Of a stretch of DNA of 64,000 nt, positions 1 through 57,277 are shown piece by piece. The first letter of the stretch is position 1. Each line of letters begins with the position of its first letter. The translations under genes were made by a program, and so were the position numbers. The DNA is taken from the NCBI RefSeq assembly GCF_003704095.1, contig NW_020846357.1, forward strand, positions 186,001 to 250,000. The letters run 5' to 3'. The DNA is from Pocillopora damicornis. Taxonomy: Eukaryota. A model generated the notes under the pieces. That model was not told the origin of the DNA. It was given only the letters and a program-made list of their open reading frames with translations, and ran no database searches.

Positions 1-68
1 AAGTAAGGATAAATTTTGGCTTAGGGGAGGGGTAGATGGGCAGTTGCTTGGATACTGACATTGATCCA
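1..68. mobile_element. Right half of a palindromic MITE-like repeat (GGTTAGGGGAGGGGTAG...GATACTGACATTGATC family)
   Basis: Same sequence family recurs at 21703-21804 and 54699-54805, where both inverted arms are visible. Confidence 0.65.
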
Positions 69-9616: not shown

Positions 9617-12111
9617 GGAAATTTAATGATGTTAAAAATGTTAGGGCATTTTTAAGATAATTTATAATTTATAATTTCATTGCCTTTTCTTTACTTCCCT
9701 CTGAAATTGGTAAAGAAAATTAGCGCCATCCTCTGAACAAATCAGATGCAAAATTAATCGCAACTAGCCCAATCGCGTTTTCCCGCACTCCGGAAATTGG
9801 CTTGATTTTACTTCGAGTTCTCATTGGCTCACTCTCATTTTCGCGCGCTCTGTGAAGTTTGCTTTTTTTTTTTTTTTTTTTAACTCGCTACGCGCTCTTT
9901 GTGGCATTCCCCCTTGCCCTGATTGGCCTTTGTGATTATTTTGTCCTTGTTTTAGATGCTCTCTGATGTTGATCAATCCCAGCTTCTTTTTATATTTTCA
10001 CTCGAGAGAGAGATAGGGTAAGGCTTCAAGATTATTAGTACTTGTTTTTGGAAATGTTTCTTACTAACAGGAGTAAAAACACCGCCATGGAAGGAAGTGA
10101 CTGTAGTGCTTTTTTGACTGGAGCTGATCTCAATTCGCAAAGAGAGCACACGCTGTTTTTCTTCCTGAACAAAATCATGAGATTTTTTAGCCGTAAATTC
10201 CGGGAAACTTCGAAAGACGGATTTCTCTAGTTTACGACTCAGTGTTTGAATTATAAAAAAAGATGATACAGTTACGAAATGAAATTATACTAACTTTGCA
10301 AATAAAATGTACATATTCAAATACTAACTTTCTAAGTAGAATTGTGAGATGAAACTTTCCCTTTTGAATTGTCCAGTAAAGGATGTTTTTAATAAATGAG
10401 TTAAACCTACCGCAAACAAGCAGGTGTTTTGTAATCTCCGTTCTCTTTGCATTTTTCAATCTGTTTATCACTGTTGCTCTCGTCATTCAAACTCCTTTCG
10501 TGCAAGAGGCAAATGATTGCGTGCACACTCCTAATATCGTACTGGTCAGGAAACTGACTTCGTAAACACCTTCAACCCCTGCTCACTTAGGAGTGTCCAA
10601 AAAGCAATTTCTCTTTACGAAATCGATATATTGTCGAGCAGAAAAGTAATGAAAAGAAAGAAATAATATCAACTGAGGTATACGGTTAGGTTCGACATCA
10701 AATTCTCTAAACTAACATTAAGGATGTATGCCAAGCAGAAGTGAGAATTAATCTTCAGATCTCGGGAGTGAGGAGAAACTGTTTGGGAACTGTCAAAAGA
10801 AACAGAAATTAGCGTGTAATTAAGTGCTATCAACTGCAACTTAAATCAGGCAATTGCAGAATAACATAGAAAAGTTTGATTGATATGTGACATTACATTT
10901 CAAACAAATCTCTATATGAAAATCGCCGCCCACTTGAAAACACAATCTAATTCTCCCGACTTGGAATCAAATTTCCCCCAAAAAATATTACGCACTATGT
11001 GTGTTGGTTAAACGTTTTATTAGTTCAACGATAAGCTGCATTAATAGCTTTTCCGATTTTTTAATCTGCCGGTTTTCTTTTTCTATATTAATTAAAAATA
11101 AAACTAGTTTAGGTAAATGTGTTACACCCGAAAAAAAAAAAAAAAAAGCTTGGAAAAGCAGCTAACTACCTTTTTCATAAATTAAATTCAGTGGGGTCCT
11201 TTTTTTTAATTAAACTGCGGTGTTTATTAAATGGTATTTAAAACTCTGTGTTGGATCAAATTCCAACCGGCGCAAAAGTTTCCCTGAAATCAGGATTTAT
11301 TTCAATTCAAACAGCCAATATTGTGCTTTTCGGCGACTTTTAGAAAATACAGCGTCAGATTTATATTGGCCACGGATACAAACTTTTCATATTAAAACGA
11401 GTTATTATCGGCAGTCATCAATGTGGCCTCTTGAATTCGATGAGTCTCCATTGGTTGACAATGAAGACAGGATTCAACCAACGATACTGAAATGGAGATC
11501 ACAGGGAGCCGAATTCTGTAAAGTGCGCACGAAAAATCAGGAACACTCTTAACAAGCGCGTAAATAAGAGCGAGAAAAGAAAACACTACTGTCATTTGCC
11601 GAAACCAGAAGGCATTATCAAGCATTGCAAGTGTACTTTTTTCCTGATCGAAAAGCCGAGGTAAGTTTTATATTTGACTTGGTTTTCACTGCAGAGATCG
11701 AATAGCGATTCCAGTCAAAGACAGACGAGACTTGATTTTATAATGTGAAAAAGGATTCGCGGCGATATATTTTCTAATCATGGGAAGGGCCGGACAGGAA
11801 AAATTTGGCTCGAGGTCATAACGTACAGACCGAGCACAGAAAAGTCAAGTAATCTCCCGTCCAGCCGCACCAAACTCAGTCAATAAGTATGTGACCGTCT
11901 TCCCCACTTCTTTTAGCTTGCATCTCGCGCGGCTGCACGGCTTTTTCCAGCCCTGCTCACGCAATCGCATACGGCCCTCATACACGGATTTTCGCCTGCT
12001 TTTTTTCTATAAAAGCGTTAAAAGGCCTGCATGTGTCATATTATAAAATTTGTTACATCATGCAATCAACTATCATCATTGTTACATTTTCTGTCAGTTG
12101 ATAAACTCAAT

Positions 12112-13041
12112 ATGTGGTTCTGGGTGTTTGGATGGTTCCTTGTTCTGACATCAGTGATTGGCAATGGACTCATAATTTATCTCGTCATCACGAAACCTCG
12201 CCTCCATACCCCTGGTAATAATTTCATCGTATCGCTGGCCGTTGCCGATCTCTGCGCATCTCTAGCGTTCTTTCCACCCCAGTTTTGCGCTAAATTCATC
12301 TACACTATTGACCTCAGCCATGCAGGTCTCTTTTTCAAAGTCAGCTTCGCCTTCCTGTACTGTTCCAACACAAATCTTTTCGCAATGGCACTCGATCGCT
12401 TTCTTGCTATTGCAACGCCTTTTCGGTATATCTATTTAATCACGGAGAAAACTACCTGGTCCGTGATCGTTGCGGCTTGGATTTCCCCGTTTTTGCTCTT
12501 CTTCTTTCCTGCCATCTTCACTCACAACAACAATCCAAAGTACACCATGCTCGTGGAAATCTCCCGAATTATTATCTTCCAAATCCTGCCCTTTGTTTTC
12601 TTTGTCGCTGTGACGTTCCATCTACTTCGCGTCGCCCAGAAGGTCAACAGCCAGATCGGTATAATGACCACTCAGGTCCGGTACAACCATGCCACGGGTG
12701 CAGTCAACAACAGGCCACCTGCCCTGTCCAATGTAAACTTCAGGGGTTCGACTGCTTTGATTATCATGGTGATGACCGCCTATAATGTCACATACATCGG
12801 CTGGAATTATCACTGTCTATGCCATCTCATCGGTGTTTGTCAGTCTACCAAGACGCTGAATCACATAGTTTCTATTGCACTGATCGCCAACACTGCTGTC
12901 AATCCAGTCCTCTACTCTTTTCTTAAGAAGGACATTCAGAGGGAATTTTCTAGGTTGTTCTCAGGGAAGGTGCTGAATCCCACTGAAATCGTTGGAAAGG
13001 GGCACGAGTCTCCTAGACCAACCACAATCACAGGAAGGTAA
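12112..13041 (+). CDS. Rhodopsin-family (class A) orphan GPCR, single coding exon
   Basis: Seven hydrophobic segments, GN (TM1), SLAVAD (TM2), DRF (TM3), NPVLY (TM7). ATG 12112 follows acceptor at 12097; upstream donor at 11660/11661 has an in-frame stop just before it. Confidence 0.9.
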   Translation: MWFWVFGWFLVLTSVIGNGLIIYLVITKPRLHTPGNNFIVSLAVADLCASLAFFPPQFCAKFIYTIDLSHAGLFFKVSFAFLYCSNTNLFAMALDRFLAIATPFRYIYLITEKTTWSVIVAAWISPFLLFFFPAIFTHNNNPKYTMLVEISRIIIFQILPFVFFVAVTFHLLRVAQKVNSQIGIMTTQVRYNHATGAVNNRPPALSNVNFRGSTALIIMVMTAYNVTYIGWNYHCLCHLIGVCQSTKTLNHIVSIALIANTAVNPVLYSFLKKDIQREFSRLFSGKVLNPTEIVGKGHESPRPTTITGR

Positions 13042-20100: not shown

Positions 20101-23100
20101 GAAATTTTACCGCAGTTGTAATTTGCAATTGTAATCGAAAATGTTTTTGGATTTGTGCGCTTTAAAACAGTTTAACTTATATGATAGATCGTTTGAATTC
20201 GGGGGTAACAGTTGACAGTATTGTCTAATGGTCAAGGTGGGTGTGGAAAAGAACTGTTGTCAGTGGTTATTTACCTTGTTTACAAACTCGTCACTGTCGA
20301 GCAAGGAAGAAATAACACTGATTGATGTGTATTTGAATTGCCTGAGGTGTTTCGCTGAGTGAGTGTCCACATCAAACAGAGGCGTAACAGCGAGGAATAC
20401 ACGGGCACTTCTTCTAGCCATCCTGGGCTTTTGACGAACTGTGGAGGAAATATCGAGAAGAAAAGAAATTTTTAAAGGAAAATCTTTTGATGACTAATTA
20501 TCACATCGACGAGTTCACTGATTACTTATAGGAAAAGCGTCTTTACACACACAACGAAAGGAAGAACGATCGAAAGAACGAACAAACGAACGAACGAACG
20601 AACGAACAAACTAAGGAAAGAACGAACAAACTAACGAACGTACGAACAAACTAAGGGAAGAACGAACAAACTAACGAACGCACGAACAAACTAAGGGAAG
20701 AACGAACAAACTAACGAACGTACGAACAAACTAACGAACGTACGAACAAACTAAGGGAAGAACGAACAAACTAACGAACGGACAGACTGACGAACGAACA
20801 AACGAAATGACGAACAGACGAAGGTCCAAAGTGAGGAATGGACAACAAAGAAACTCAAACAAGGAATAATAAACAAACGAACCAATGTACGTTCAGGAGC
20901 CATCAAGTGTCAGAAAGGACTCAACTCGTGTGATTTTTTTTCTCAAGAGGAAAACTCCTTCAAACACGGGGAATACACATTTCATCATTCACTAAGATGG
21001 CACCTGATTTAAACACTTTCATGTCCTGGTACAAACGAACATAACTAAGTTAACATTATAATCATTTGGTAGTATACCTTCAGGTTTTGCCAACGGCAAC
21101 TGATCAATGAACTGCAGGAGTTTCAGCATGGCCTCTACCTACAAACAATAATGTTCTAGCATCACGTCAAGACTAATGAACACTTTTTTGTTTCTACTTT
21201 CAACAGTGAATAAACAGCTTAAAAAAAAAATAACAAAAAAGAAAAAAAAAACGATACAATTTTTCCGCTTCTCAATTTTTTCCACCAAATACTGACAAAA
21301 CACGTTAATTACGACCAGAACCTCCCAGATACGTTGTCATTTCCAGATTTTGTTATACCTCGGGTCAATTCTTTAACAGACAAGGTTTCACGCTTCTTCA
21401 CGCTGCTCATATTACAAGATATCTTTTTTTAACGCGGTGGTTTTGTATGATACCTTAGTCCTGATTCACACTCGTATAACTAATTTCAACACCGCACGTC
21501 TTAAAACTTACTGTACCTGAACATTAACGTGGAAGCAATGGCAGAGACTGAGACAAAAGTCTGCTCCAAGAGGCTTTTTGGCAACAGAGGTCTGAAACAC
21601 AAGAAATAAATCATGTCAGAGATACCTACTTTTACGTATATTTTAAACTATTCTTTACTTTTCCCCTTTGTCTACAGAAATAATATTTAGAGCAATAGCA
21701 TTAATGTCAGTATCTGGGCAACGGCGCACCTACCCCTCCCCTAACTCAACATTACCCTAACTTGTTCTCGGTTGACTGTTGTTGGGTTAGGGGAGGAGTA
21801 GGTGNNNNNNNNNNNNNNNNNNNNNNNNNNNNNNNNNNNNNNNNNNNNNNNNNNNNNNNNNNNNNNNNNNNNNNNNNNNNNNNNNNNNNNNNNNNNNNNN
21901 NNNNNNNNNNNNNNNNNNNNNNNNNNNNNNNNNNNNNNNNNNNNNNNNNNNNNNNNNNNNNNNNNNNNNNNNNNNNNNNNNNNNNNNNNNNNNNNNNNNN
22001 NNNNNNNNNNNNNNNNNNNNNNNNNNNNNNNNNNNNNNNNNNNCATGCTTCTCCAGTAAGAGAATGATCACTGTGTGAAGGAACTGTGTTGAACCAACAG
22101 TGCCGATGAGATGAGCAAACAAGGGAAGCTGGCGGTGCTCTGGAATGTGAGGCGAGGCATCCACAAATACTCTGATAAGCATCGCCACAATGTCATCCAG
22201 AGACGCTGAGTCCTTTTTGGTCAGCTGTGGTAACTGCTGCTTCTCACCCGCCTAAATGGATTGAGACGTGGATGAAGAAATCCTAAATGGGAGCGTTGAA
22301 ACTAATCCAGGACTGGAATAGGTTTGCTATGCCTCGTTTTGTGATCGGTGTAGAAAACTTGCAGCATCCTTGACCCACACGCATTTCACCCTCTGACCCA
22401 CGCGCGTTTCTCCCTCTAACCCACGCGCTTTTCACCCTCTGACCCACGCGCGTTTAACCTTCTGACCAACGCACGTTCCACCCTCTGAACCATGCGCCTT
22501 TCACCCTCTGACCCTCGTGGATTTTATCGCACTTCACTGGATTTCCGTATTTTAGATTTGGATCCCAAAATATTCTCTGTGACATTCACCACCTTTGTCT
22601 TATTTAGCCGTTGTAATTTGTTTCCGTTTTAGGACACTCGATTGTGCGTTTATACGTTTCTTACTCATATTTCACTTCATATGCACAACTGAAAGTAAAT
22701 GCAGTTCAAACAAACCACACATACCTGAATCAACGCAGGAATCACTGTGTCCAGTGTTTTAGTGATGACTTCAAAACTGTAACTATCATCCTGGCGGACG
22801 ACACTCGCGCCCATGAAAGTGAATATCGACATCACATTGTGCAAAACTTTTTCCTAAAAAAAAAAAAAAGCCCCAAAGATCACGCCAATCAGTCTGTTAT
22901 AATCACATTGTTGGTGGACGCGGGAGGCTGAGAGGGAGAGGGGTGGGGGGAAAGAGAGTTTTTCAGCTGGCATACAAATTTACACATAATCACGTGAAGT
23001 CTGCACAGGAGAAAGACTTGAATAGCTACCCCGCCGCAACTCCTCCTGGTTTCTGTAAGATGAAGGGCATAGGCGTGATTTAACTCTGCCGGGCTAGAAA

Positions 23101-26100: not shown

Positions 26101-29100
26101 GCGTTTTCAGGCGAGGGATGGCACGCGCTATGTGCGTGCAAAGGCAGGTCACACGCGTGACTCGCCCTTGAGGCTCACGTTATGCTCGCTCTCGCCTCAA
26201 GCTATACTCGCTCTCGCCTCGCACTATACTCGCTCGCGCCTCGCGCTATTCTCGCTTTCCACGCCATTTATTCGCTCTTTCCTAATACTTTCCTCCGCTC
26301 GCCTCAAGACAAGAAGTGACCCGTTCCAAAGGTAATAAAAAAATTTGGCAAATTTGAAATTTTTCTATAAGTGAAAAAAAATTAAATAATATCATATTCT
26401 CACCTATGTAACTGCTCGGAATCTGCAGAAAGTTCTTCAGCACTGTCCTTCAAGACATCAAGAAGTGCCGTCACTGGACAGGCTTGGACAGAAGATAGTT
26501 TGGACTTGATAATCTTTATACAAGCAACAGCCGACTTTCTTACAGCAGAGACTGGGCTGCACAGCGGCACCATAAGAGAAGGTACAACTGCAAAAGCAAG
26601 AATCGAGTTACACCTGTATACAAATGTACATCGATGACAAATGTATCACTCACAACCTGATAATTGGCAACTCAAATTTTAGTTTGGTTACCTGCAGCAA
26701 AAACACTATTGTACCTGAACATGTTGTCTTGGCCAGTTCCTTCACCGCTTTCCCGCTAATGGAGCCAAAGCATGCAGTAGCGATGTGAAGACACTGAACT
26801 TGCAGAAGAGCTAATCCACTCTCCCCTCCCTGGTGGAGATTTTTACACCATAAATGTCCTAGAAACTTTAGCAGGACTAGTTTTTCTGGTAAATGGCACT
26901 GGAAAAGAATGTAACGGAAAATGACATTTAACTGAACAATGGATATTGAAACTAAAACTTGTAACACATAAATGATAAATGTGTAAACAATTAACTCAAC
27001 AATTTAAAATGCTTAATACAGTAGATTTGATGACTACAAGTAAATTAGAAAATAAAAAATAAAATGAATTTAACTCTGGTAGCTACTTCAAAATGGATAA
27101 ATCTCTAACATATATTATGTACACCTGAGTACGTAATTGACCTCTCTCTACATTGTCTTTTACCTGGAAGAGATCTTGAAGTAATTCTTTGAATAAATCT
27201 TGATGTGCTGTTGAAGTGCCACTTCCAAATGCTACAGCCTCAAACAGCATTGTCAGAAGCTAAGGAAAAGGAAAGGTAAGGACTTGTAAATTGCACTTTT
27301 AATTTGGAACGGTATCCTTATGCTTTATGTTCCATACCTTAGTATAAATGCCTTCTGGGTTATTACCATCTGCCTCTGGCCACCACTGTTCTACAAGTGA
27401 CAAACAATGCACATGTATAATATGTCTTTAGATTTCTGTACATTATGTGACAACCAGACATGTACAGAAAATTGGGGAAAGGGAGGAGGAACAAGTAATC
27501 GAATCCCAGCTGCTCACTGACTATCAACACTGTCCATAGTTTAACAATTAAACCACTGTCTGCATTGTCCAACAATGCTTAACTTACATTATTTACTCCA
27601 TAATTCAAAAAACATTTCTCACCACTTAAAGCACAAGGCACAGTAGGGATGTTCTTTATCAATATCTTACACAGCCACAGTGTAATGGCACCTTTGGAAT
27701 GATTCAGCCGCTTATTGCTGTGTTTACCAAGAAATTTCACCAAACATTTTAGTTGAGAAAATGGAACCACATGCCCTGGAGTTGTGTCTTTGTTTCCTGA
27801 CTCTTCATCCTAAAAATGTATACATAAAAGAAACACCTTCCTAAGAAAACAATTGGTACTGTGCTCACATATAAACAACATAAAATCACTATTTCTGCAC
27901 TCCAGACAAGATCTTCTGCATTTTATGTGAATGACTGAAAAGATCAGAGCAAAAGCTACATCCATCAGGTTTTCAGAAGAGAGCACAGGTTTGCAGAAAT
28001 ATTCTCAGGTTGGCTTCCTGTTTTCCAAGTTTAGAGAAAGAATAATATGGTTGCTTTTTCATCAATTAAATCCCAGGAAAGCAAGGAAGTTTTCTCTTTT
28101 TAGCACACTTCTTTATTCTTTCAAAATCCAAGAGAAAATTGAGCATAATAAAATGAAGGAAAGTGGGGTAGAGGTCACTTAATTCAAAGACAGAGCACTG
28201 AAAAACTTCTCAGATTGTTGCTTTAAACATTAAATGTCAGTCCAGTCCACAGTACCTTGAGTGGCTCATAGTTTCCTGGCAATCTTGTCACTTTCCAAAT
28301 ATCGGGTAAGATATATTCTGTGATGATTTGGCAAAACTTAATTTTACACTCCTCTGTTGCTGTAGCAATGACCCTACTGAGCAGACAATTCAGGAGAGGG
28401 TAGAAAAGACTTTCATCTGAAAGAGTTTTGGCATACCCTATCATACTCTGAACCTGATTGAGAGAGAGTCAAGAAGAAATGTAACAACTTTAAAATTAAC
28501 TTTTAAAGGTGAATTCTTTACAATTACTGACTTCAAACATCTACAGTTAGTACATACATGTATGCTCAGAGGTACAATGTAGGTTCTGATTCCAATTCTC
28601 ATGAATGACAGTGCCAGTCATATTTACAAGTCTAAAAAAATAATTCTTGATATCAAGAATTACACGTCTATGGAGGGGAGAAGAGTTGTTTTACCCACCA
28701 TCTCCACACATTGTTCTTCATCCAACTTAACCAAGTTATCTCCAAGCCAACTGATCAGTAAGCTGCTGGCCAAGGCAAGCTTATCAAGGTCAACAATCTT
28801 TGTGCAACTTTTCCACTCTGAAAGAGTTTTAGAGGATAAAGTACATTCATACTTGAATAACAAAATGTATCTCAGCTAATCACAATACAACTTATTGATA
28901 CCTACAGATATAATTTGATACATAAGCAATACAGATACATGTACAATCCCTTTTTGATAGGTGACACCAGTTTTGTAAGCACTGAAAGAAGATAACTTTG
29001 TTAGTTGCTGTAGTTGCTGAATGTTTGCATATAACTGTAAATGATGCATATGTATCTACCTTTCTTTTGAACAAAATCTTCCATTCCAGTCAAAAGAGGA

Positions 29101-32100
29101 TGCAGTGAAGCCAGCTCTGATTGGCTGACAATTAATGACAACTGAACTGCCATTTTGTGAGACTGACGATGGAGCAGTAGACGAGGCAATAAACCAAACA
29201 TAACTTCTGCTACAAGTGATGGCACAGCACAGGTTACCCAGTCACCAACCAACAATAGAGAGGCTTCCTCTCGGACCTTGTCCCTACAGGACCAAAAAAA
29301 GAATTATTACTGCATGTAAATCTAGCTTGATAGACTTACAAAAGAAATTAATGTTTCCTTTAATTTGGTCATCATAATGTCCATAAAATTGTGTTACACT
29401 CACCACTCCTCTGATTTCTTGTCCAGAAGTTTAAACATTTCTTTCAAAAACTGATCAATGGGAAGATTATCTACAAGCCCCTAATTACAAAATAATACCC
29501 ATGATACATTATTAATATAATCACATATTTTTAGTGCATCTAAAGCAATGATAAATCACAAAAAACTCAACTAATATTCTTTATCTTGAGAAAAATCATG
29601 GAATTTCACCTGTCCCAACTTAAGCACACAAGCCACCACAGATGGATCATCATCTTGAAGTCGTGAAAGTAATGAATAGCTGATGAACTGTTTGTCTTCA
29701 GACAAGCCCTGTCAAGCCAACATTTACCAGAGTTATAATTGTATAGAAACTACAGTCACACAAATTACTAAAAAAGTAATAAGCCATGCTTCCAACATTC
29801 CATCGCAAGCATCAGAAATAATTGACAAGTGTAACCCTCCAAAAGAAAAGAAGCAAGGGGGGAAGCTACAAACAGGCTCAGGCTAATGTAACCCTCTAAC
29901 TCACATGACTGACCAAGACAGAATTTCTCCCTATAATATCCATACAACATCAAGCAGGCAAGTGATGAGAATAACAAAAAAATATCAATTACTAGTTGAT
30001 CTAATACCAAATTCTTCAAACAAGAATCAAAAGAGTTGTCTTCCAGACAGTAAGGAGAATTACTAAAGAGTTCTTGGAGGTGAAAGGATCAAGGGCTGAT
30101 CACAAATATAACAGCTGGACAACAACTGAAGAACAGTACCCCTTTATCTGCTAATAGTTCTCCTAGACGTTTGATTGCCATTTCTCGCACTTGGGCTTGA
30201 GGATGATGAAGACTCAAAACTAGTGTTGTGTTTGAATCAGGAATGACCTGCAGAGGGAAAAGTCAACATCCAGTTGAATATAACTGTTATATTAATGCTC
30301 TCTTACACATACATATAGTCCGTTAGATATTCCATACATAATGGTCATCATTCTAAAAGGGGTACAGAGACAATGTGGCAGTGTTTTTTTTAGATATTTC
30401 TTTGATCATCTTAATTACAGCTGGAGAGCCAAAAAAATTTCCATTTCATTTCTGTCATTCTAAAATTCACAAGAAACTATGTTGTCATTTATGACAAAGG
30501 GTCTCTGTGTACATTAGGTTTTAAGAAATGCTTGCTTTTAAAATNNNNNNNNNNNNNNNNNNNNNNNNNNNNNNNNNNNNNNNNNNNNNNNNNNNNNNNN
30601 NNNNNNNNNNNNNNNNNNNNNNNNNNNNNNNNNNNNNNNNNNNNNNNNNNNNNNNNNNNNNNNNNNNNNNNNNNNNNNNNNNNNNNNNNNNNNNNNNNNN
30701 NNNNNNNNNNNNNNNNNNNAAGGACACCAGATCCATTGTCCAGAGGGAACCTTCCTCTGAAACAATGCCAGCATCCCCCTCAGTCATGTCCTCTGTGTTC
30801 TTGAGTGCCTGAAGATGTGCCTCAACAGCTCTCTCTAGTTCAGTAGGATATCTTGTAAAATAAACATAATTATACATTAAAAACAAAATCAACTTTAGTA
30901 ACAGGAAAGAAAAGATCACCTAGAGAAACTTCTAAAGGAACTACATTTGCCCTGTTTTACCAAGCATACAAGACTTAATGTTGAGTCATATCCATTGGTA
31001 AATATGGGTTATTCAATTATGAGAAGTGACATTATGAGAACTTAATTAAAGCAAACTCTAAAATACCAGCGCTTTTTGAGCAAATGTGACAAACACCAGT
31101 TCTGCCAGCTTTTCAGAACAGATATTTGGTCTCATTACTCAGCATCAGATGGATATAGCCAACTACAGTTTCACTTAAAGAAGAACTACAAGAAACAAGC
31201 AGGGTACACAACACGGAGTATGCCCATAGTGCTTAAAGATATAAATGAATTTATTCAAAAACATAAAAGCCCTACACATATACAAATGTGCAGGCATCAA
31301 ACCTAACCTTTTTTCCAAGGCCTGCACCAAATCTTTCACTTTTTCATTCAAGTTTCCAATTCTACCCTCATCTGCACCCAATGCTTTCCTGGCATCACAG
31401 TACTCCTCAAGAAGTGTTCTACAGGTAAGAATCAAGGACAGTGATTAATTTACAATTTTTAACAAAAAAAAACAAGTAATTTGAGAAATGTGATTGTCTT
31501 TAGGAAGAGAGTCCATAAGAAGACTGCTCTCATAGACTGTGCCTGACATTTCCACCAACTGAACAGAAGTCATTCACAAAGTCAAGCACATGGAAGTTTC
31601 TTTCAGTCAAATGTTAGGTCTGTTTAGAGAAAACTGATTAGACTGAGTTTTACGAAGTTTTTATTGGCTTGAAGCCTGCTAAATGTTGAGATCACATTCT
31701 TCCAGTGTCAGAAAGGTACTCAACTCATGTGATTTTTATTCTCAAGAGGAAAATTCCTTCAAACACGGGGAATACACATTTCATCACTCACTGGTCTGAA
31801 GTATCTTGAAATATATATGAAAAAAGTGCTATAATTGATGCTACATGTTAATGACCAGATGCATGGTCTCACAACCTGTTCCGTAGCTTACTATAGCCTT
31901 GAAAGACTAGAAATTCCTAAACCTGATTGACAAGTAACTTTTCCTTACAATAGCAATATATTATCCAGCAAACAAGTACTGAGAATAAATCAAACTTATC
32001 AACTCCAGGGTGTTTATGTGATACATGATATAATCAAAATACAAAATTGAAAATTTTTGAAAAATATATAGTTTCCAAAGAAATATAAAGCAGCTTGAAG

Positions 32101-34076
32101 GTACAGTTTCAGATCAGACCTTAAGCCTTCCTCCAGATGAAGCAGAGGTTTTCATTCAAGCTGTATTTTATTTGAATTATTTGTTTTTAACCCTCTGACA
32201 GTGCCTATATAATATCTGTACTACACACTGTTCAGAAAAGCATTAAAAACATCTGTATTTCTTACAATGAACAACTTATGGTGAATTCTGACCTGCCAAT
32301 CACTGTGACCAGTGCTGGTTCAAAATCAACCTCTCTAAGTAATTCCCAGACAATCTCTAACAGGGCTCTTGTGTCACTCTCCTCTGATAACTCCTGTTTT
32401 ATTCCATTGGATACAAGTTGTGGGACAAATGCTTCAAGTAATGGATTAATGCTATGAGTCACAGACAAATTGTGAAGAATATCTACCAGTCTTGGAAGTT
32501 TCAGAAGTGCTTTAAAAGACCTGTGACAAAATACATAGCAATACACAATTATAAATGAAAAATGGAAGATTTTAAGGATAAGGAGTGACATATCTGCACA
32601 TTAAGCAAAAGTAAGTCATTTTTATCATATGCTATATACATGTATCATAGACTAACCTCTTTGATAATTTCTTTAACCCCTGAGATTGACATGTGTAGGT
32701 AAGACAAGACAAACCTTCAGTGGCAAATCCTGGTTTAATGCTCTGCAATTTATTAAAAAGCGAAGGGATTAATAATACTTGAGTTTGGGAGAGCTTATGA
32801 ACCAATGACAAGTTATAGTGGTCAACCAATGATGAGAAAAAGCTAGAGAAAGACAAGGGAAAGAGAGACGCCACAGAAACATGGAGAGCTACAGACAGTA
32901 CCTTCAAAGAATGGACTATGAAAATAAACTTGATTACTCCCTGTAACAAGACTTGAGGAACAGTTTAAATTTGAGGACTGCCCTGATTGATAATTGATTG
33001 GTTGTAAAAATTTATGCAAACTCAAAAAATGACTAAAGCTTCACCACATTGATAAGTTGCTAGTTTTATTTCAAGACTCAATTTCAGTCCCTGGTGCTTT
33101 CATGATAGGTGATCTTGAATTAAGTCACAAGGGTCAACCTTGAAGGGACTTTCAACTCACCATTTACTGTTGTATTTTATTCATGGAAGATGCCCAAAAT
33201 AACAGTAATTTATAATACCTTACATATGCTGTCAGATAGGGATTTCACCAATTCCTTCTCCATACTGCATCTAAAACACAACTGAGCTGTAATAATGTAC
33301 GATGATGCTATCAGCTCTGAGAGCCCAGACTTAATACCAGCCAGTAAATGAGGCAATAACAGAGTCATAAATTTCTCTGTCACACTTGGCATCATATCCA
33401 AGACTCCAACTACAGTTGAGGTATAAAATGTAAACAAAACTCTCGAGCTTGATGGAGGGATTTCCAACTTTATACCTTCCATTACCATGTCACAAATGAG
33501 AGAGAAGAAGGCTGTATCAGTGATGCAGTGTTGTAAGAAAGCTGTCTTAGAAAGGGGAACTCCAGCTTTTTTAATCGGACTGAGCCAGTTCCATTTTGAG
33601 GAAGGATCTTTTATGGAAAGTAGCTGCAACACACGAGTGAACAAGTTTGTTTCGTGGTAAGGCAAAATACAAGTGACCAAACTATCAACATTGTGCACGT
33701 GGATTTGGAATCTTCGGATAAGCCATTCCAAAACCTTATGAGCTGGCTTTAGCAAGAAGTATGGCGATAAATATTGCAGAAACTTTGAAATATGCTTATC
33801 GAGCTTTTCGTTCACATCTTTTGTCTGTAAAGATCTCTCCAAAGACATCGAATTGTCGCCAAAAAGCGACTTTTCAAACATCTTAAAGGCAGGCTCGATA
33901 ACTTTCAATTCTTCCAAGCCATTTAAACCGATAGAGAACACAGTTTCGTTGTCTATGTCAGCTGCCTCTTTCGAATCAAATAGCAGAGATGATTTTTTGC
34001 TGGCTTTAGCAGTGGCTGTTGAAGGCAAACTGCCTGGTATTTGCAGTTGCTGTAGTTGTTTTGCCAGGGACGTCAT
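13454..34076 (-). CDS. HEATR1: HEAT repeat-containing protein 1 / U3 snoRNP protein UTP10, multi-exon (first coding exon 34076-33219, last 13542-13454); several exons truncated by N gaps
   Basis: N-terminus MTSLAKQLQQL...SLLFD.KEAADID...LSPYFLLKPAHKVLEWLIRRF; internal VRKALELL-like exon at 19546-19397; C-terminus WKPLNYQVLLKTR...LLPESIPFLAELMEDECFEVE...LGEPLQKYF. Confidence 0.97.
14143..14302 (-). mobile_element. Penelope-like/retrozyme-type repeat fragment carrying a minimal hammerhead motif
   Basis: Minus strand contains CTGACGA-A-GGGC-TAAC-GCTC-GAAA-C-GTC; decayed relatives at 13967-13998 and 15724-15836. Confidence 0.7.
14259..14292 (-). ncRNA. Minimal type I hammerhead ribozyme motif (stem I weakened)
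   Basis: Core CUGANGA and GAAA boxes, 4-bp stem II with UAAC loop, palindromic ACGU stem III, GUC cleavage triplet (C at 14262). Confidence 0.65.
20555..20820 (+). repeat. (GAAC/AAAC)n-derived compound microsatellite with 20-bp higher-order units
   Basis: Repeating AACGAACAAACTAACGAACG / TACGAACAAACTAAGGGAAG blocks in a HEATR1 intron. Confidence 0.9.
20906..20993 (-). ncRNA. Intronic box C/D snoRNA candidate, copy A
   Basis: Sense to HEATR1: box C ATGATGA (20988-20982), box D CTGA (20913-20910), terminal stem AGTG/CACT; paralog at 31702-31794. Confidence 0.8.
21703..21804. mobile_element. Palindromic MITE-like repeat, right end lost in N gap
   Basis: CACCTACCCCTCCCCTAAC versus GTTAGGGGAGGAGTAGGTG inverted arms; same family as 1-68 and 54699-54805. 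Confidence 0.7.
22371..22520 (+). repeat. 23-bp minisatellite (TGACCCACGCGCGTTTCACCCTC), about 6.5 units
   Basis: Degenerate tandem units in a HEATR1 intron. Confidence 0.85.
26184..26255 (+). repeat. 22-bp tandem repeat (CTCGCTCTCGCCTC..CTATA), about 3 units
   Basis: Visible tandem units in an intron. Confidence 0.7.
31702..31794 (-). ncRNA. Intronic box C/D snoRNA candidate, copy B
   Basis: Box C GTGATGA (31787-31781), box D CTGA (31711-31708), 6-bp terminal stem CCAGTG/CACTGG; similarity to copy A stops at the stem. Confidence 0.82.
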
Positions 34077-45795: not shown

Positions 45796-48700
45796 TCATG
45801 AGCTTTCGGCTGTATCATCAGTCGGCAAAGAATTATCCGTAGGTGGAGGGTGAGACAACACTCTGTCAATCAAACCAAACTCTTTAGCTTCCTCAGGTGA
45901 CATAAACTTGTCCCGTTCCAGCGCTTTTTCTGATGTACAAAAATTGGAAACAAATAAGCCATCAATAAATGCGTGAACAAGTGATTAATTCAGTGTTTGG
46001 CATTGTGGGTGTCCGAGATAGACCAGGATTGGTTTTATTTTGCTTCTCTACGTTCTCTGATTGGTCCAAAAACTTGTGATCCTCTCGACTTATCATATGC
46101 AAAACTTAAATCCATCGCGATTTTGTCACTCTCACTCCTTGTCTATGTTATGATCAATGCAACAAATGTAGCAATTTGAAGCAAGTAGCTTATAACATGT
46201 TTTCAAAATCTTACCTATTTCATCAAGAGGCTGACCCGTGTGTTTAACATAGATCTTATTTAGGAGTGTCTTGAGCTTAAGAATTTCCTCTGCTTGAATG
46301 GCTATATCTGTGGCTTGGCCCTAAAAAAATAATGAAAAATTTACAATGGACATCTTTGCATAGTCATGCAGTCAGAGCACCCTTAACTTTGCCTAGTACT
46401 TATCTCAAGTTCACACACATCTTTCAGTTACATGCAAAATAATTACCTCTTCCTTGTTTAAGGCTGCATAAACTAAGTCAAATTGAAGTTCAAAGGATGT
46501 TGATGTTTCTCAAACATTTGAGTGACTACTTTCAAGGGTATATCAACAAAAAGTAACAACAACAACATACCCGTGCTCCTCCATGTGGTTGATGCACCAT
46601 AACCCTAGCATGTGGTAAAGCATGTCTCAAACCTGGGCTTCCTGCAGTTAACAGCAGGGAACCCATGCTGCAAGCTTGCCCCATACACCATGTGGAGATA
46701 GGAGGTTGAATATACTGGAGAAGGAAATATCGGTACATTATGAGACTTTCTTACTTTCACTGACGAAGAGCACTTAAGATGAGGTTCCCTTCAGTAATCC
46801 TTTCAATACTTCAGAATTACTGCACCCTTGCAGATGCTCATTTCATTCTTCTGTATAGAAACTCTTGCAATGCCATAAAACTCCATGAACATCTTTGATA
46901 AGCAGTAACTTTCAGAAAACCTGCTCTCTCTCCCCCACCCCCCCAAATTAAAAAAAAAGGGGTTTACACCTCTACCAAAACTCTGGGCTATGATTTTGTA
47001 CAGAATAAACAAACAAATGTGATACAATTGCTTAAAAATTGTAACAAGCATACCTGCATTGTGTCATAGATGGCTAATCCTGCTGTAACTGACCCACCTG
47101 ACAAGAACACAAAATAATTAAGTTTCACGTGTAAACCTGACCTAAAACATCCAGAACACAATATATCACACAGGTGGGTAAGTGGTTAGTGCTCTAGACT
47201 CTGGATTAAAAGGTCCACGTTTGAGAACTGGCCTAGTCATTGTATTGAAATGCTACGCAAGACACTTTATTCCCACAGCACCTTTCTCCACCCAGGAGTA
47301 TAAATGTGAGACTGCAAACTTTCAGAGGAAGCTGACAAAGTTAGAGAGGCTAACCTCTCACTTACTCTAAATTCCTTTAGAAGGCTGAGGTCAGGATAAC
47401 TTCTTTTTAACTTAGAAGGTGACTTTTTTTGCTAAACCCTAAATATCAAATTAAATGTATTAAAACCATGGCTTTGATCACAATATATGACAACTTTCCT
47501 TGTTATCCTGATTTTCCCACAGATAGTTTTTCCCAACATAACAACAGTAATTAGCAACAGTATGTTTAAAAGTGCCTTTAATTTTAATTAAATCACCTGG
47601 ACTGTTGATGTACATATGAACAGGAGTTCTATCATTCTCAGACTGTAGAAATAATAGCTGAGCCACAACAAGACTTGACAACTCATCTGATATCTAAAAA
47701 ACAACAACAGAAAAAAAACCATTTGAAAAAGGTTCTGAATCAGTGATTAAAAATACATCAGGTTTGTTGGCAAGGCAGAGAAACTAGAGAACACAGGGGT
47801 CCCAACAAAAAACCCTCAGAGAAGAAAGGAAAACCAACAAAACATTCAAACACATGAAATGCTACATACAGGAACTAAAGTGGGGTGACAGCATTGAGAG
47901 ATGAGTGCTGCAGCAACTGCATCATCTCCACTGCCCCTTGATAACCAGCCAGCATCAGTTTCTTGTAGGATGTTATGTCCAAATTCCTTAATATGGCATC
48001 ACAAAGGATTGTTGTCCGAATGCAAAAAACTTTATCATTATTTCTTTGCACATTGCACACTGTTATACTGGACTGGCCCACAAAAATGTGAGCTAATCAC
48101 ATGTGATTTTATGCATTTAGTTAGTTTCTTATAATAATGACAAATTTTACTACAAGGCTGTCTCTCTTAGAGGCAAACAAAGTGAATCCTGCATTCTGAC
48201 TGGTTGACAATCTATTCCTTCACAAAAGGCTTCAGGTCAAAAATTGTTCAAATGATAAGTCCTTGTTCAGTCAAACTAGACACACAATTTTATAGTTTTT
48301 TTTTCTCATTCTCCTAGCTGATTCTTGTGCTACTTAATTAAGAACAATGAATTCTACTTTGAATAAGCTGCGTTTTCAACTCTCTTTTCCTTCAAAAACT
48401 ACCACAACTTAGAGTAATCACTTGCATATCTGGTTACATTTTAAAATTTAAACATCGTCACTTACAGGACCCATAACACACACTATTCGCTCTTTCAGAA
48501 GACGGGAAAATATGTCATAGGCTCTTTCACCTCTTCCCTGAAAAACATTAAGATAAATCTTTCATCAATCAGAAAACAGGAAGAGAAGGTTCTGAGCACG
48601 TATCAAAGTTGAAATACTTTAAGAAATATAAATGCTCCGGCTCTGTAATTACATACCGTTTGTTCGATCACCATAGGAATCAAGAACTGTCTCCTGCAAG

Positions 48701-49979: not shown

Positions 49980-50906
49980 TTAGCAAATAATGAGGCTTCC
50001 TAAAGTGCTCAATGCTGCGCGTCTTAGATCCTTTATCCTCCAAAAATAAATCAGAGGATTTAAAGAGCTATTGGCAAAAACGATTGTTACTAAAACTGAA
50101 TACTCTACAACATCGATGGACTTGTGTCCTCTGCGAGTGAGTTTTTTTAGTTCCACACATAAATAAGGAAGGTAGCATAACACGAACAGTTTTAAAACCA
50201 TTAGAGACGTAAAAGTCTTTGCTTTGTACTTAAGCAAATCAAAAGCATTTTGTTCTTGGTTAATGGGTTGTTCAGTTTGTATCTGCCGTTGATGTCGACG
50301 AATAATTTTCCAAATTGTCTTATAGCTGTAACAAATCACTAAAATACAACACAGTGCTCCTGCGACAGACAGTATGGCAAGGATTGAATACCTTCCCACA
50401 GCGAACCAGATGATTAACGAAATCAAAATCTGAAATACCCAAAGCTGAAATACAACAGAAGCCACTCTTTTTGAAGTCACTAGTTCATGGTAACGTAAAG
50501 GCCAATGAATAGCGACAGCTCTCTCTATGCTCAAGTAAGTTAACGTTCCTAAAGATAATGCTGTGAAGAGATACGCCAGAAACATTTGAATTTCAAAAAC
50601 TACACAAAAGGTGGCGACAAGACGAGCATAAACATATAAACATAGCATAGGTTGGAGTAACAAACCCACGCAGAGATCGGCCATAGCTAAAGATGCAACC
50701 AGTATATTTGACACGGAATGAAGAGAAAACGTCTTCCACAACGAAAAGAGGATAAAAACATTGGCAACAACAGCAACCGGCGACAGTAGTCCGTTTATAA
50801 TACTGATTCCGATAACAAAATTACGGTAGTTGTGCTCATAAAGTATGGTAGAGTTTGTTTGTACAGTTGCTCCGAGTATCACACAGAAGCTGGAAGCGTT
50901 GGTCAT
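49980..50906 (-). CDS. Rhodopsin-family (class A) orphan GPCR, intronless, melanocortin/adenosine-receptor-like architecture
   Basis: MTNASSFC start with N-glycosylation sequons; SLAMAD, ERA in place of DRY, CYLP, NSSLNPLIY.WR; very short Cys-free ECL2. Confidence 0.9.
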   Translation of the reverse strand: MTNASSFCVILGATVQTNSTILYEHNYRNFVIGISIINGLLSPVAVVANVFILFSLWKTFSLHSVSNILVASLAMADLCVGLLLQPMLCLYVYARLVATFCVVFEIQMFLAYLFTALSLGTLTYLSIERAVAIHWPLRYHELVTSKRVASVVFQLWVFQILISLIIWFAVGRYSILAILSVAGALCCILVICYSYKTIWKIIRRHQRQIQTEQPINQEQNAFDLLKYKAKTFTSLMVLKLFVLCYLPYLCVELKKLTRRGHKSIDVVEYSVLVTIVFANSSLNPLIYFWRIKDLRRAALSTLGSLIIC

Positions 50907-51248
50907 TTTCTTTTTGACGATTTCAGTCTTCAGAAACTTCACAACCTCTCATCTTCTCGGCTCTCAAATAAATATACATCTGTGGTGGTTGTTAGTCTTA
51001 AGAATTAAAACGTTTTCAACGTCAATTTCGTTTTTAGTGCGGGAACCTCACTCAAAACATTACTTGATTGGAGTTAAGAATTGAAAATCATGGTTTCGGG
51101 GCGACGAAATGACTTTTGAAGATTGAAATTCTATTTATTGACAGACATTGTCTCTTAAATAAACAGGATTTCCGTAACAAATACTTTGTTAGCGTCTTGT
51201 TGCTGAAACTGTTTTGTCGGTTTATTTTTAAATGGGGAAGCGCTGTTT

Positions 51249-52700: not shown

Positions 52701-57277
<4,577 letters not shown>

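What the first reader, a model, noticed from the sequence alone, without database searches (positions are those of the whole stretch)
20906..31794. Two paralogous box C/D snoRNA candidates in HEATR1 introns with possible bipartite pairing to 18S helix 31
Seen: an about 90-nt sequence occurs at 20906-20993 and 31702-31794, both sense to the host, with box C (RTGATGA), box D (CTGA), a terminal stem and an internal GGAA/TTCC hairpin. Similarity ends at the stem and a 31-nt block is invariant, which suggests selection on a processed RNA. Known: ribosome-biogenesis genes commonly host snoRNAs, and 18S helix 31 reads GACUCAACACGGG(G)AAAC around the hypermodified m1acp3-pseudouridine. Inference: UUCCCCGUGU plus a UUGA box D' pairs with ACACGGGGAA (the D+5 rule predicts Gm at the first G), and a second element GUUGAGU(A)C near box D pairs with the adjacent (G)ACUCAAC. 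I do not recall a methylation at this G in yeast or human, so this could be a lineage-specific guide or a folding chaperone.
Basis: partly seen in the sequence, partly recalled or inferred. Interest (0 to 1): 0.7.

Follow-up and report, generated by a model that had tools for sequence, protein, structure and literature searches.

The report
Coral snoRNA for trypanosome-type 18S methylation
Two introns of a coral ribosome-assembly gene each carry a copy of a conserved sequence built like a small nucleolar guide RNA, which likely places a sugar methyl group on ribosomal RNA next to the tRNA-binding site, at a position known to be methylated in trypanosomes but not listed for fish, frog or fly.

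Summary
Observation confirmed. Two 93%-identical box C/D units (20906-20993, 31702-31794, minus strand) lie sense in two HEATR1 introns, and no other copy was found in the assembly. A metagenome scan gave 18 homologous loci of 31; 17 lie sense in HEATR1 introns. No Rfam family matches. The 10-nt D' guide pairs with 18S helix 31 and predicts Gm seven bases 3' of m1acp3-pseudouridine (yeast 1198, human 1255). That site is not new. It is methylated in Leishmania (SSU 1550; m1acp3 at 1543) and T. brucei (1603), guided by LM23Cs1C1/TB8Cs3C2 with the same guide core and register, but placed before box D. The second element keeps an invariant core, yet sits 4-8 nt from box D, so it is not a second guide. 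It fits the known 'extra base-pairing' of van Nues 2011, and the trypanosome guides carry a similar element. Best reading: an ordinary single-site methylation guide with a helper element, undescribed in animals in my searches. Expression, methylation and this coral's own helix 31 sequence were not shown. Shared ancestry with the trypanosome RNA is open.

The parts
20906..20993 (-). snoRNA gene copy 1, in the HEATR1 intron after codon ~1345 (Stylophora protein numbering)
   Evidence: (103.5 bits; the model contains this copy)
20982..20988 (-). copy 1 box C (ATGATGA)
   Evidence: sequence
20964..20973 (-). copy 1 D' guide, 10 Watson-Crick pairs to 18S helix 31; predicts Gm at +7 from m1acp3-pseudouridine
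   Evidence: computed on non-coral 18S loci
20960..20963 (-). copy 1 box D' (TTGA)
   Evidence: sequence; (this box was part of the search pattern, so its invariance is by construction)
20948..20959 (-). copy 1 short hairpin between D' and C'
   Evidence: 93.5% of cells paired, no two-sided change
20940..20946 (-). copy 1 degenerate box C' (TTGAGAA; closer to consensus in L058)
   Evidence: assignment inferred from position
20918..20925 (-). copy 1 extra base-pairing element, 8 bp, target offsets -10 to -3 from the predicted Gm
20910..20913 (-). copy 1 box D (CTGA)
   Evidence: sequence
20439..21077 (-). host intron of copy 1 (639 nt, GT..AG)
   Evidence: inferred from protein homology, not from reads
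31702..31794 (-). snoRNA gene copy 2, in the HEATR1 intron after codon ~391
   Evidence: (117.1 bits; the model contains this copy)
31781..31787 (-). copy 2 box C (GTGATGA)
   Evidence: sequence
31763..31772 (-). copy 2 D' guide, identical to copy 1
31759..31762 (-). copy 2 box D' (TTGA)
   Evidence: sequence
31739..31745 (-). copy 2 degenerate box C'
   Evidence: inferred from position
31718..31724 (-). copy 2 extra base-pairing element, 7 bp, target offsets -9 to -3
31708..31711 (-). copy 2 box D (CTGA)
   Evidence: sequence
31419..32292 (-). host intron of copy 2 (874 nt)
   Evidence: spliced joint 31418/32293 in one contig of run X12
13457..34076 (-). host gene HEATR1/UTP10, coding span

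Best explanation
The two units are duplicated intronic genes in coral HEATR1 with the boxes and terminal stem of a box C/D snoRNA, and the RNA likely guides fibrillarin to 2'-O-methylate one G in 18S helix 31, seven bases 3' of the m1acp3-pseudouridine (yeast 1198 / human 1255 equivalent). Shown: boxes, stem, sense position in HEATR1 introns, conservation in other coral-like HEATR1 genes, 10-bp complementarity upstream of D', and methylation of the same site in trypanosomatids by a guide in the same register. Inferred: the RNA is released from the spliced intron and binds the core C/D proteins. Also inferred: the 6-9-bp element in the C'-D strand pairs with the bases just 5' of the site, across the helix 31 loop, and helps a short guide open or hold the helix (extra base-pairing in the sense of van Nues 2011). 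It does not direct a second methylation.
For: Two copies at 93% identity with background flanks; no further copy found in the assembly. 18 of 31 metagenome loci are homologues; 17 of the 18 carry HEATR1 exons, all 17 on the same strand, at four intron positions that include both of the window's. A random 10-mer from this gene region has a perfect complement in a 1900-nt SSU stretch in 27 of 20000 draws. The best guide run elsewhere was 5-7 bp on the own U6 and on the decayed 28S and 5' 18S pieces. The extra element was not in the scan pattern, yet all 16 distinct sequences keep its 5-nt core. The 13 chance loci reach only 3-5 bp there; random 27-mers reach 7 bp in 312 and 8 bp in 29 of 20000 draws. 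Leishmania: m1acp3 at SSU 1543, Nm at 1550, scores 0.86-0.96; Gm1550 by primer extension. Guides LD/LM/LA23Cs1C1 and TB8Cs3C2 end in the same 8-nt core directly before a box, are listed for one site each, and all 4 carry UGAGUCAA in the other strand. Extra pairing in the second guide region, overlapping the guide by 1-2 nt, is described in PMC3116282.
Against: No discrete small RNA was seen: the four runs laid were contigs, two laid nothing, and one 238-nt contig covered part of the unit. This coral's helix 31 was not read, because the assembly holds only decayed 18S pieces without it. Pairing was computed on non-coral 18S loci that were selected for the motif. D' and C' are both degenerate. 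The 16 sequences are close (84% mean column identity, effective number 1.68, about five lineages) and guide, box C and D' were fixed by the search pattern, so their invariance says nothing. No covariation supports any helix (0 two-sided changes). Dinucleotide shuffles were a weak control: 65 of 300 matched the guide run and 20-208 of 3000 the extra element. One copy type (L063/L074/L075) has CAGA for box D. No full 28S or U2 could be scanned for rival targets.
Confidence: 0.75

Rival explanations
1. The RNA is a non-methylating helix 31 chaperone or timer: both elements grip the helix and shield or present the m1acp3-pseudouridine site during small-subunit assembly.
For: The invariant core of the second element is centred on offset -7, the hypermodified U (the identity of that U is recalled and agrees with the Leishmania 1543/1550 spacing). 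D' and C' are degenerate. An unchecked note from this scan describes a diatom C/D RNA that grips helix 31 without methylation guides.
Against: The D' guide sits in exact +5 register, and the same core and register give a measured methylation in trypanosomatids. Degenerate C'/D' motifs are active in yeast (abstract). The RNA has ordinary guide size (about 85 nt).
Confidence: 0.12
2. The RNA guides base acetylation or another base modification through two-part pairing, like snR4, snR45 and SNORD13.
For: Two antisense elements to neighbouring 18S segments, a feature of snR4/snR45.
Against: The two pairings abut and overlap by 2 nt and leave no bulged base between them. The target has no CCG motif (NAT10 consensus recalled). 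One element is a canonical D' guide.
Confidence: 0.02
3. The RNA is a double guide: box D also directs a methylation 5' of the hypermodified U.
For: In copy 1 the fifth base upstream of box D pairs with the G at offset -10; box D is canonical.
Against: The gap between the paired run and box D is 4 nt (copy 1, L063, L074b), 6 nt (copy 2 and the ten L049-like sequences), 7 nt (L058) and 8 nt (L071, read). In most copies position 5 is unpaired, and in copy 1 it is the terminal pair.
Confidence: 0.04
4. The real target is another RNA (28S, a spliceosomal RNA or an mRNA) and the 18S match is chance; or the units are untranscribed relics.
For: Full 28S and U1/U2/U4/U5 were not available to scan; runs of 8-10 bp from the C'-D strand to other places occur. 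Expression is unshown.
Against: Two independent runs land on adjacent 18S segments (27/20000 and 29-312/20000 separately). The same site and helper element occur in trypanosomatids. The unit is conserved while its flanks have decayed.
Confidence: 0.07

Closest known systems
Trypanosomatid LM23Cs1C1 / LD23Cs1C1 / LA23Cs1C1 and T. brucei TB8Cs3C2 (guides of SSU Nm1550/1551/1603; PMC13487219 supplementary file 11, row 202)
   Same: Same target (+7 from m1acp3-pseudouridine), same 8-nt guide core directly upstream of a box, one listed site, similar length, and a UGAGUCAA element in the other strand complementary to the bases 5' of the site. L058 and the Leishmania guides agree at 15 of 16 bases upstream of the box (read by eye).
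   Different: The guide lies before box D, whereas in corals it lies before D'; the helper element is in the opposite strand. The helper may overlap the trypanosome D' box, so part of its conservation may be due to the box. I saw no similarity outside these elements by eye and ran no alignment. The coral copies are intronic in HEATR1. Homology is unproven.
Single-guide C/D snoRNAs with extra base-pairing (yeast snR75, snR47, snR70, snR87; human HBII-316; van Nues et al. 2011, PMC3116282)
   Same: A short guide plus a 4-11-bp element in the unused guide strand, not adjacent to a box, pairing next to the site and overlapping the guide by 1-2 nt.
   Different: Different target sites; no sequence relationship was tested or is expected.
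snR4, snR45, SNORD13 (C/D guides of NAT10/Kre33 acetylation)
   Same: Box C/D RNA with two antisense elements to 18S.
   Different: Those loop out a cytidine between the two pairings; here the pairings abut and one is a canonical +5 guide.
Rfam snoZ182 (RF00314)
   Same: Best-scoring Rfam match over copy 1 (23.1 bits, E 2.5).
   Different: Far below the gathering score of 80 and with a different guide; a generic C/D match only.

Membership tests
Box C/D snoRNA (class) | Box C RUGAUGA near the 5' end and box D CUGA near the 3' end | tested here: met
   Both copies. Box D is CTGA in 15 of 16 distinct sequences and CAGA in 1; box D was not in the scan pattern.
Box C/D snoRNA (class) | Terminal stem closing the C/D motif | tested here: met
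   92% of cells paired, one-sided changes keep the pair at 3 of 7 positions, no two-sided change.
Box C/D snoRNA (class) | Intronic and sense to a host gene, or own promoter | tested here: met
   17 of 18 homologous loci sense in HEATR1.
Box C/D snoRNA (class) | Accumulates as a discrete RNA bound to fibrillarin, NOP56, NOP58 and SNU13 | not testable with these tools
   Only contigs were available, which cannot show ends.
2'-O-methylation guide | About 10 or more base pairs directly upstream of D or D', with a Watson-Crick pair at position 5 | tested here: met
   10 bp, position 5 C pairs G, on two non-coral SSU loci; the coral's own helix 31 was not read.
2'-O-methylation guide | Target nucleotide methylated in vivo | not testable with these tools
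   No coral methylation map found; the equivalent site is methylated in trypanosomatids.
Extra base-pairing C/D guides (van Nues 2011) | Conserved 4-11-nt element complementary to rRNA adjacent to the site, not adjacent to D or D' | tested here: met
   6-9 bp in 16 of 16 sequences, 4-8 nt from box D.
Extra base-pairing C/D guides (van Nues 2011) | Mutating the element lowers methylation | not testable with these tools
   Needs an experiment.
TB8Cs3C2/LM23Cs1C1 family | Same target nucleotide and guide register | tested here: met
TB8Cs3C2/LM23Cs1C1 family | Guide upstream of box D, same order of elements | tested here: not met
   The coral guide is upstream of D' and the helper is in the C'-D strand. 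It works like this family but is not filed as a member.
TB8Cs3C2/LM23Cs1C1 family | Common descent shown by intermediate taxa or alignable sequence | not tested
   No eukaryotic genome collection could be scanned beyond one metagenome pattern tuned to the coral form.
ac4C guides (snR4/snR45/SNORD13) | Two pairings flanking a looped-out target cytidine | tested here: not met
   The pairings overlap by 2 nt.
Any Rfam 15 family | Score at or above the gathering threshold | tested here: not met
   0 matches in the window; best 23.1 bits against a threshold of 80.

The most novel reading that the evidence does not exclude
Corals keep an ancient eukaryotic helix 31 methylation, known so far from trypanosomatids and lost in yeast, flies and vertebrates. 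The guide descends from the same ancestral RNA as TB8Cs3C2, with guide and helper swapped between the D and D' halves. Its conserved helper element, centred on the m1acp3-pseudouridine site, orders ribose methylation against H/ACA, EMG1 and TSR3 action at the P-site loop.
Probability: 0.2. Interest if true: 0.65.

Novelty: new member of a known kind. Interest (0 to 1): 0.4.

Why it matters
Early-branching animals have almost no snoRNA or rRNA-modification annotation (PMC2655684 lists eight Trichoplax snoRNAs; passages). This RNA predicts a specific, easily tested methylation beside the P-site loop. I found the site listed for trypanosomatids but not in the zebrafish, Xenopus or fly tables. Its presence in corals would mean either an old modification lost repeatedly in model organisms or convergence on the same site with the same helper pairing. 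The mechanism itself is ordinary.

Tried and rejected
Rfam at gathering (0 hits) and by E-value over 12000-36000 (5 weak hits). Own 18S helix 31: not in the assembly by exact pattern, 2-mismatch pattern or RF01960; none in viral contigs; it remains unread. Own U2 not found (the search rang nowhere, so uninformative). No full 28S was obtained (one search gave a decayed piece; searches gave no answer). RNA runs X21 and X22 laid nothing and gaps in X2/X12 cover prove nothing. The recalled fly entry Me18S-C1280 is a withdrawn annotation, and no Gm128x is listed. Gm1198/G1198/Gm1255/G1255 with 18S and snoRNA: 0 papers. HEATR1+snoRNA+intron+SNORD: 1 irrelevant paper. Cnidarian and coral snoRNA searches showed nothing on this RNA in the listed top 20 of 157 and top 15 of 120. 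Arabidopsis supplements had no matching numbers; the Euglena supplement could not be read and may bear on how widespread the site is. An internal stem pairing the guide with the C'-D strand (97.5% of cells paired) has no two-sided change and one side is fixed by the pattern, so it is not claimed. A rival stem using the GUG after box C was not counted. Whole-RNA folding is not significant for the own copies (z -1.5 and -0.7) and is z -2.0 to -3.5 for five homologues. The host of L058 was not identified. In one search the script mis-picked box D for L056 and L071; their distances (6 and 8 nt) are read. A crude C/D scan of the HEATR1 span found only copy 2 and missed copy 1 at its 5-bp cut-off, so it does not exclude other snoRNAs.
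Full report
Observation. Each reads: short stem arm, box C, 8-nt spacer, 10-nt guide UUCCCCGUGU, D' (UUGA), a 4-bp hairpin, a degenerate C', an A-rich stretch, the element GUUGAGU(C/A), and box D with the second stem arm. The cores are 93% identical; the 60-nt flanks align at 47% and 45%; the longest identical block is 32 nt. A DNA search of the 234-Mb assembly returns only these two. Of 17 exact guide-plus-box pattern hits, only these two score with the family model (117 and 104 bits; next 16.7). Both searches are lower bounds by the tool's own note.

Host. Exon translations hit U3snoRNP10, HEAT_HEATR1 and BP28CT, only one of them over the curated cut-off. Exon 1 is 92% identical to Stylophora pistillata HEATR1, and tblastn maps the gene over 34076-13457 on the minus strand. 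The organism is therefore a stony coral near Stylophora (inference). Copy 2 lies in the intron after codon ~391, whose joint 31418/32293 is seen in one RNA contig. Copy 1 lies in the GT..AG intron 21077-20439 after codon ~1345.

Homologues. One metagenome scan with box C + guide + D' gave 31 loci. Eighteen are homologues (22 matches, 14 distinct sequences); 13 are chance hits. I sorted them by the second element and box D, so that split is not independent of the element. An independent criterion agrees: HEATR1 exons occur in 17 of the 18 and in 0 of the 13, and all 17 are sense. Copies sit after codons ~315, ~391, ~1345 and ~1456, so both positions of the window are shared and others arose by duplication between introns. 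The set is shallow: 84% mean column identity, effective number 1.68, about five lineages. L061 and L065 share 687 nt at 99.6% yet map to different introns, so one is probably mis-joined or converted. L058 is the most diverged and has no recognisable host. A model built from these 16 sequences scores them at 77-130 bits by construction; the best chance locus scores 22.6.

Target. The assembly lacks helix 31, so pairing was computed on two non-coral eukaryotic SSU loci, which were selected for carrying the motif. The guide forms 10 Watson-Crick pairs, and its fifth base upstream of D' faces the first G of the G run. Random 10-mers from this gene have such a complement in 27 of 20000 draws. The second element forms 6-9 pairs at offsets -11/-8 to -4/-3 from that G, so it covers offset -7 and overlaps the guide by up to 2 nt. 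Random 27-mers do this at 7 bp in 312 and at 8 bp in 29 of 20000 draws. Dinucleotide shuffles of such short strands were a weaker control (20-208 of 3000; 65 of 300 for the guide). The element's distance to box D is 4, 6, 7 or 8 nt, so it has no fixed register. That the U at offset -7 is the m1acp3-pseudouridine, and the numbers 1198 and 1255 (1191+7, 1248+7, using positions given), rest on recall plus arithmetic.

Structure. Stem and hairpin pair in 92% and 93.5% of cells, with no two-sided change, so there is no covariation support. The fold is consistent with a C/D RNA but not proven by these data.

What is known. Rfam has no match. Extra base-pairing in the unused guide strand, 4-11 bp long, not adjacent to a box, overlapping the guide by 1-2 nt and raising methylation up to five-fold, is described in PMC3116282 (abstract and passages). 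The site itself is known. PMC13487219 (passages; rows of supplementary files 9 and 11; files 7 and 13-18 not searched) lists m1acp3 at SSU 1543 and Nm at SSU 1550/1551 in three Leishmania species, with scores 0.86-0.96, and at 1603 in T. brucei. PMC2800229 (passages) maps Gm1550 by low-dNTP primer extension near U1539 of helix 31. The four guides end in CCCCGUGU directly before box D, the same core and register as the coral D' guide, are listed for this one site, and all contain UGAGUCAA in the other strand. That octamer is complementary to the bases 5' of the site, but it may overlap their D' box.

Where the site is not listed. Zebrafish: the guide table has no SSU site between 1031 and 1272 in human numbering (PMC7668251, passages and supplementary file 4; files 13-17 not searched). 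Xenopus: the only 18S-G12xx entry is G1290 (PMC6984369, passages and supplement search). Fly: no Gm128x, and Me18S-C1280 is withdrawn (PMC11014333, passages and supplement search). For yeast, human and Arabidopsis one passage names only pseudouridines in helix 31 (PMC8351944); this is not an explicit statement of absence. A whole-word search for Gm1198/G1198/Gm1255/G1255 with 18S and snoRNA found 0 papers. Other papers seen: PMC7038934, PMC11156624, PMC7672448 (supplement unreadable), PMC2655684 and PMC3412847 in passages; PMC8522698 and PMC5693986 by term search without relevant hits; PMC8393311 in outline only. Subscription papers and snoRNA databases were not searchable, so the site may be recorded in other eukaryotes.

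Mechanism. Most likely (0.75) the RNA is excised from the intron, assembles a C/D snoRNP and methylates the +7 G through D', while the second element pairs across the helix 31 loop and helps a minimal 10-bp guide engage. Processing, protein binding, methylation and the helper role are inferred. A non-methylating chaperone (0.12) stays open because the helper core is centred on the hypermodified U, and because an unchecked note of this scan describes a diatom C/D RNA gripping helix 31. An acetylation guide (0.02) fails on geometry, and a double guide (0.04) fails on register. Another target or a relic (0.07) cannot be fully excluded without 28S, snRNAs and expression data.

Verdict. A real, conserved and apparently unannotated coral box C/D snoRNA of a known kind, aimed at a site known from trypanosomatids. 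It works like TB8Cs3C2/LM23Cs1C1 but is not filed in that family, because the order of elements differs and descent is untested. Interest 0.4.

Noticed in passing
L071:13-4309 and L063:1-1486 (minus strand): Both HEATR1 contigs lack many introns that the window gene has but keep the snoRNA-bearing intron. L071 is open over long spliced stretches; L063 has frameshifts and stops. They are partly spliced transcripts or semi-processed retrocopies, and may hint that the host intron is spliced late.
   Followed up: partly
L058:886-988: Most diverged homologue, with a near-consensus C' and no HEATR1 exon in 3.6 kb; a short exon-like piece lies upstream and a long open frame of unknown kind (retroelement-like by eye) downstream. 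Its 16 nt upstream of D' match the Leishmania guide at 15 positions.
   Followed up: partly
window 20977-20979 and 31776-31778 (minus): A GUG just after box C is kept in 14-15 of 16 sequences. It could extend the guide duplex past an internal loop or pair with a CAC in the C'-D strand; unresolved.
   Followed up: partly
L074:5128-5229, L063:160-261: This copy type has CAGA in place of box D while a paralogue in another intron keeps CTGA; possibly a decaying copy.
   Followed up: no
run X2 contig laid on window 31718-31792: A 238-nt RNA contig matches only the snoRNA core, with changes at 31749 and 31754 (the latter as in copy 1); probably a copy from a related coral.
   Followed up: no
window 31308-31418: A spliced exon supported by RNA contigs that is absent from the Stylophora protein model used for mapping.
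   Followed up: no
window 20513-20876: GAAC/AAAC-type tandem repeat directly 3' of copy 1 in the same intron.
   Followed up: no
G000:C1013 (L007, L008) and G000:C3123 (L078): The only nuclear rRNA matches found in the assembly are decayed 18S and 28S fragments; an intact rDNA unit appears to be missing.
   Followed up: partly
window 12022-13038 (+), 49983-50948 (-), 45799-47693 (-): Two single-exon rhodopsin-family GPCR genes and a ClpP protease gene flank HEATR1.
   Followed up: no
window 12-65, 21700-21804, 54700-54809: Copies of a short dispersed element with inverted arms, MITE-like.
   Followed up: no
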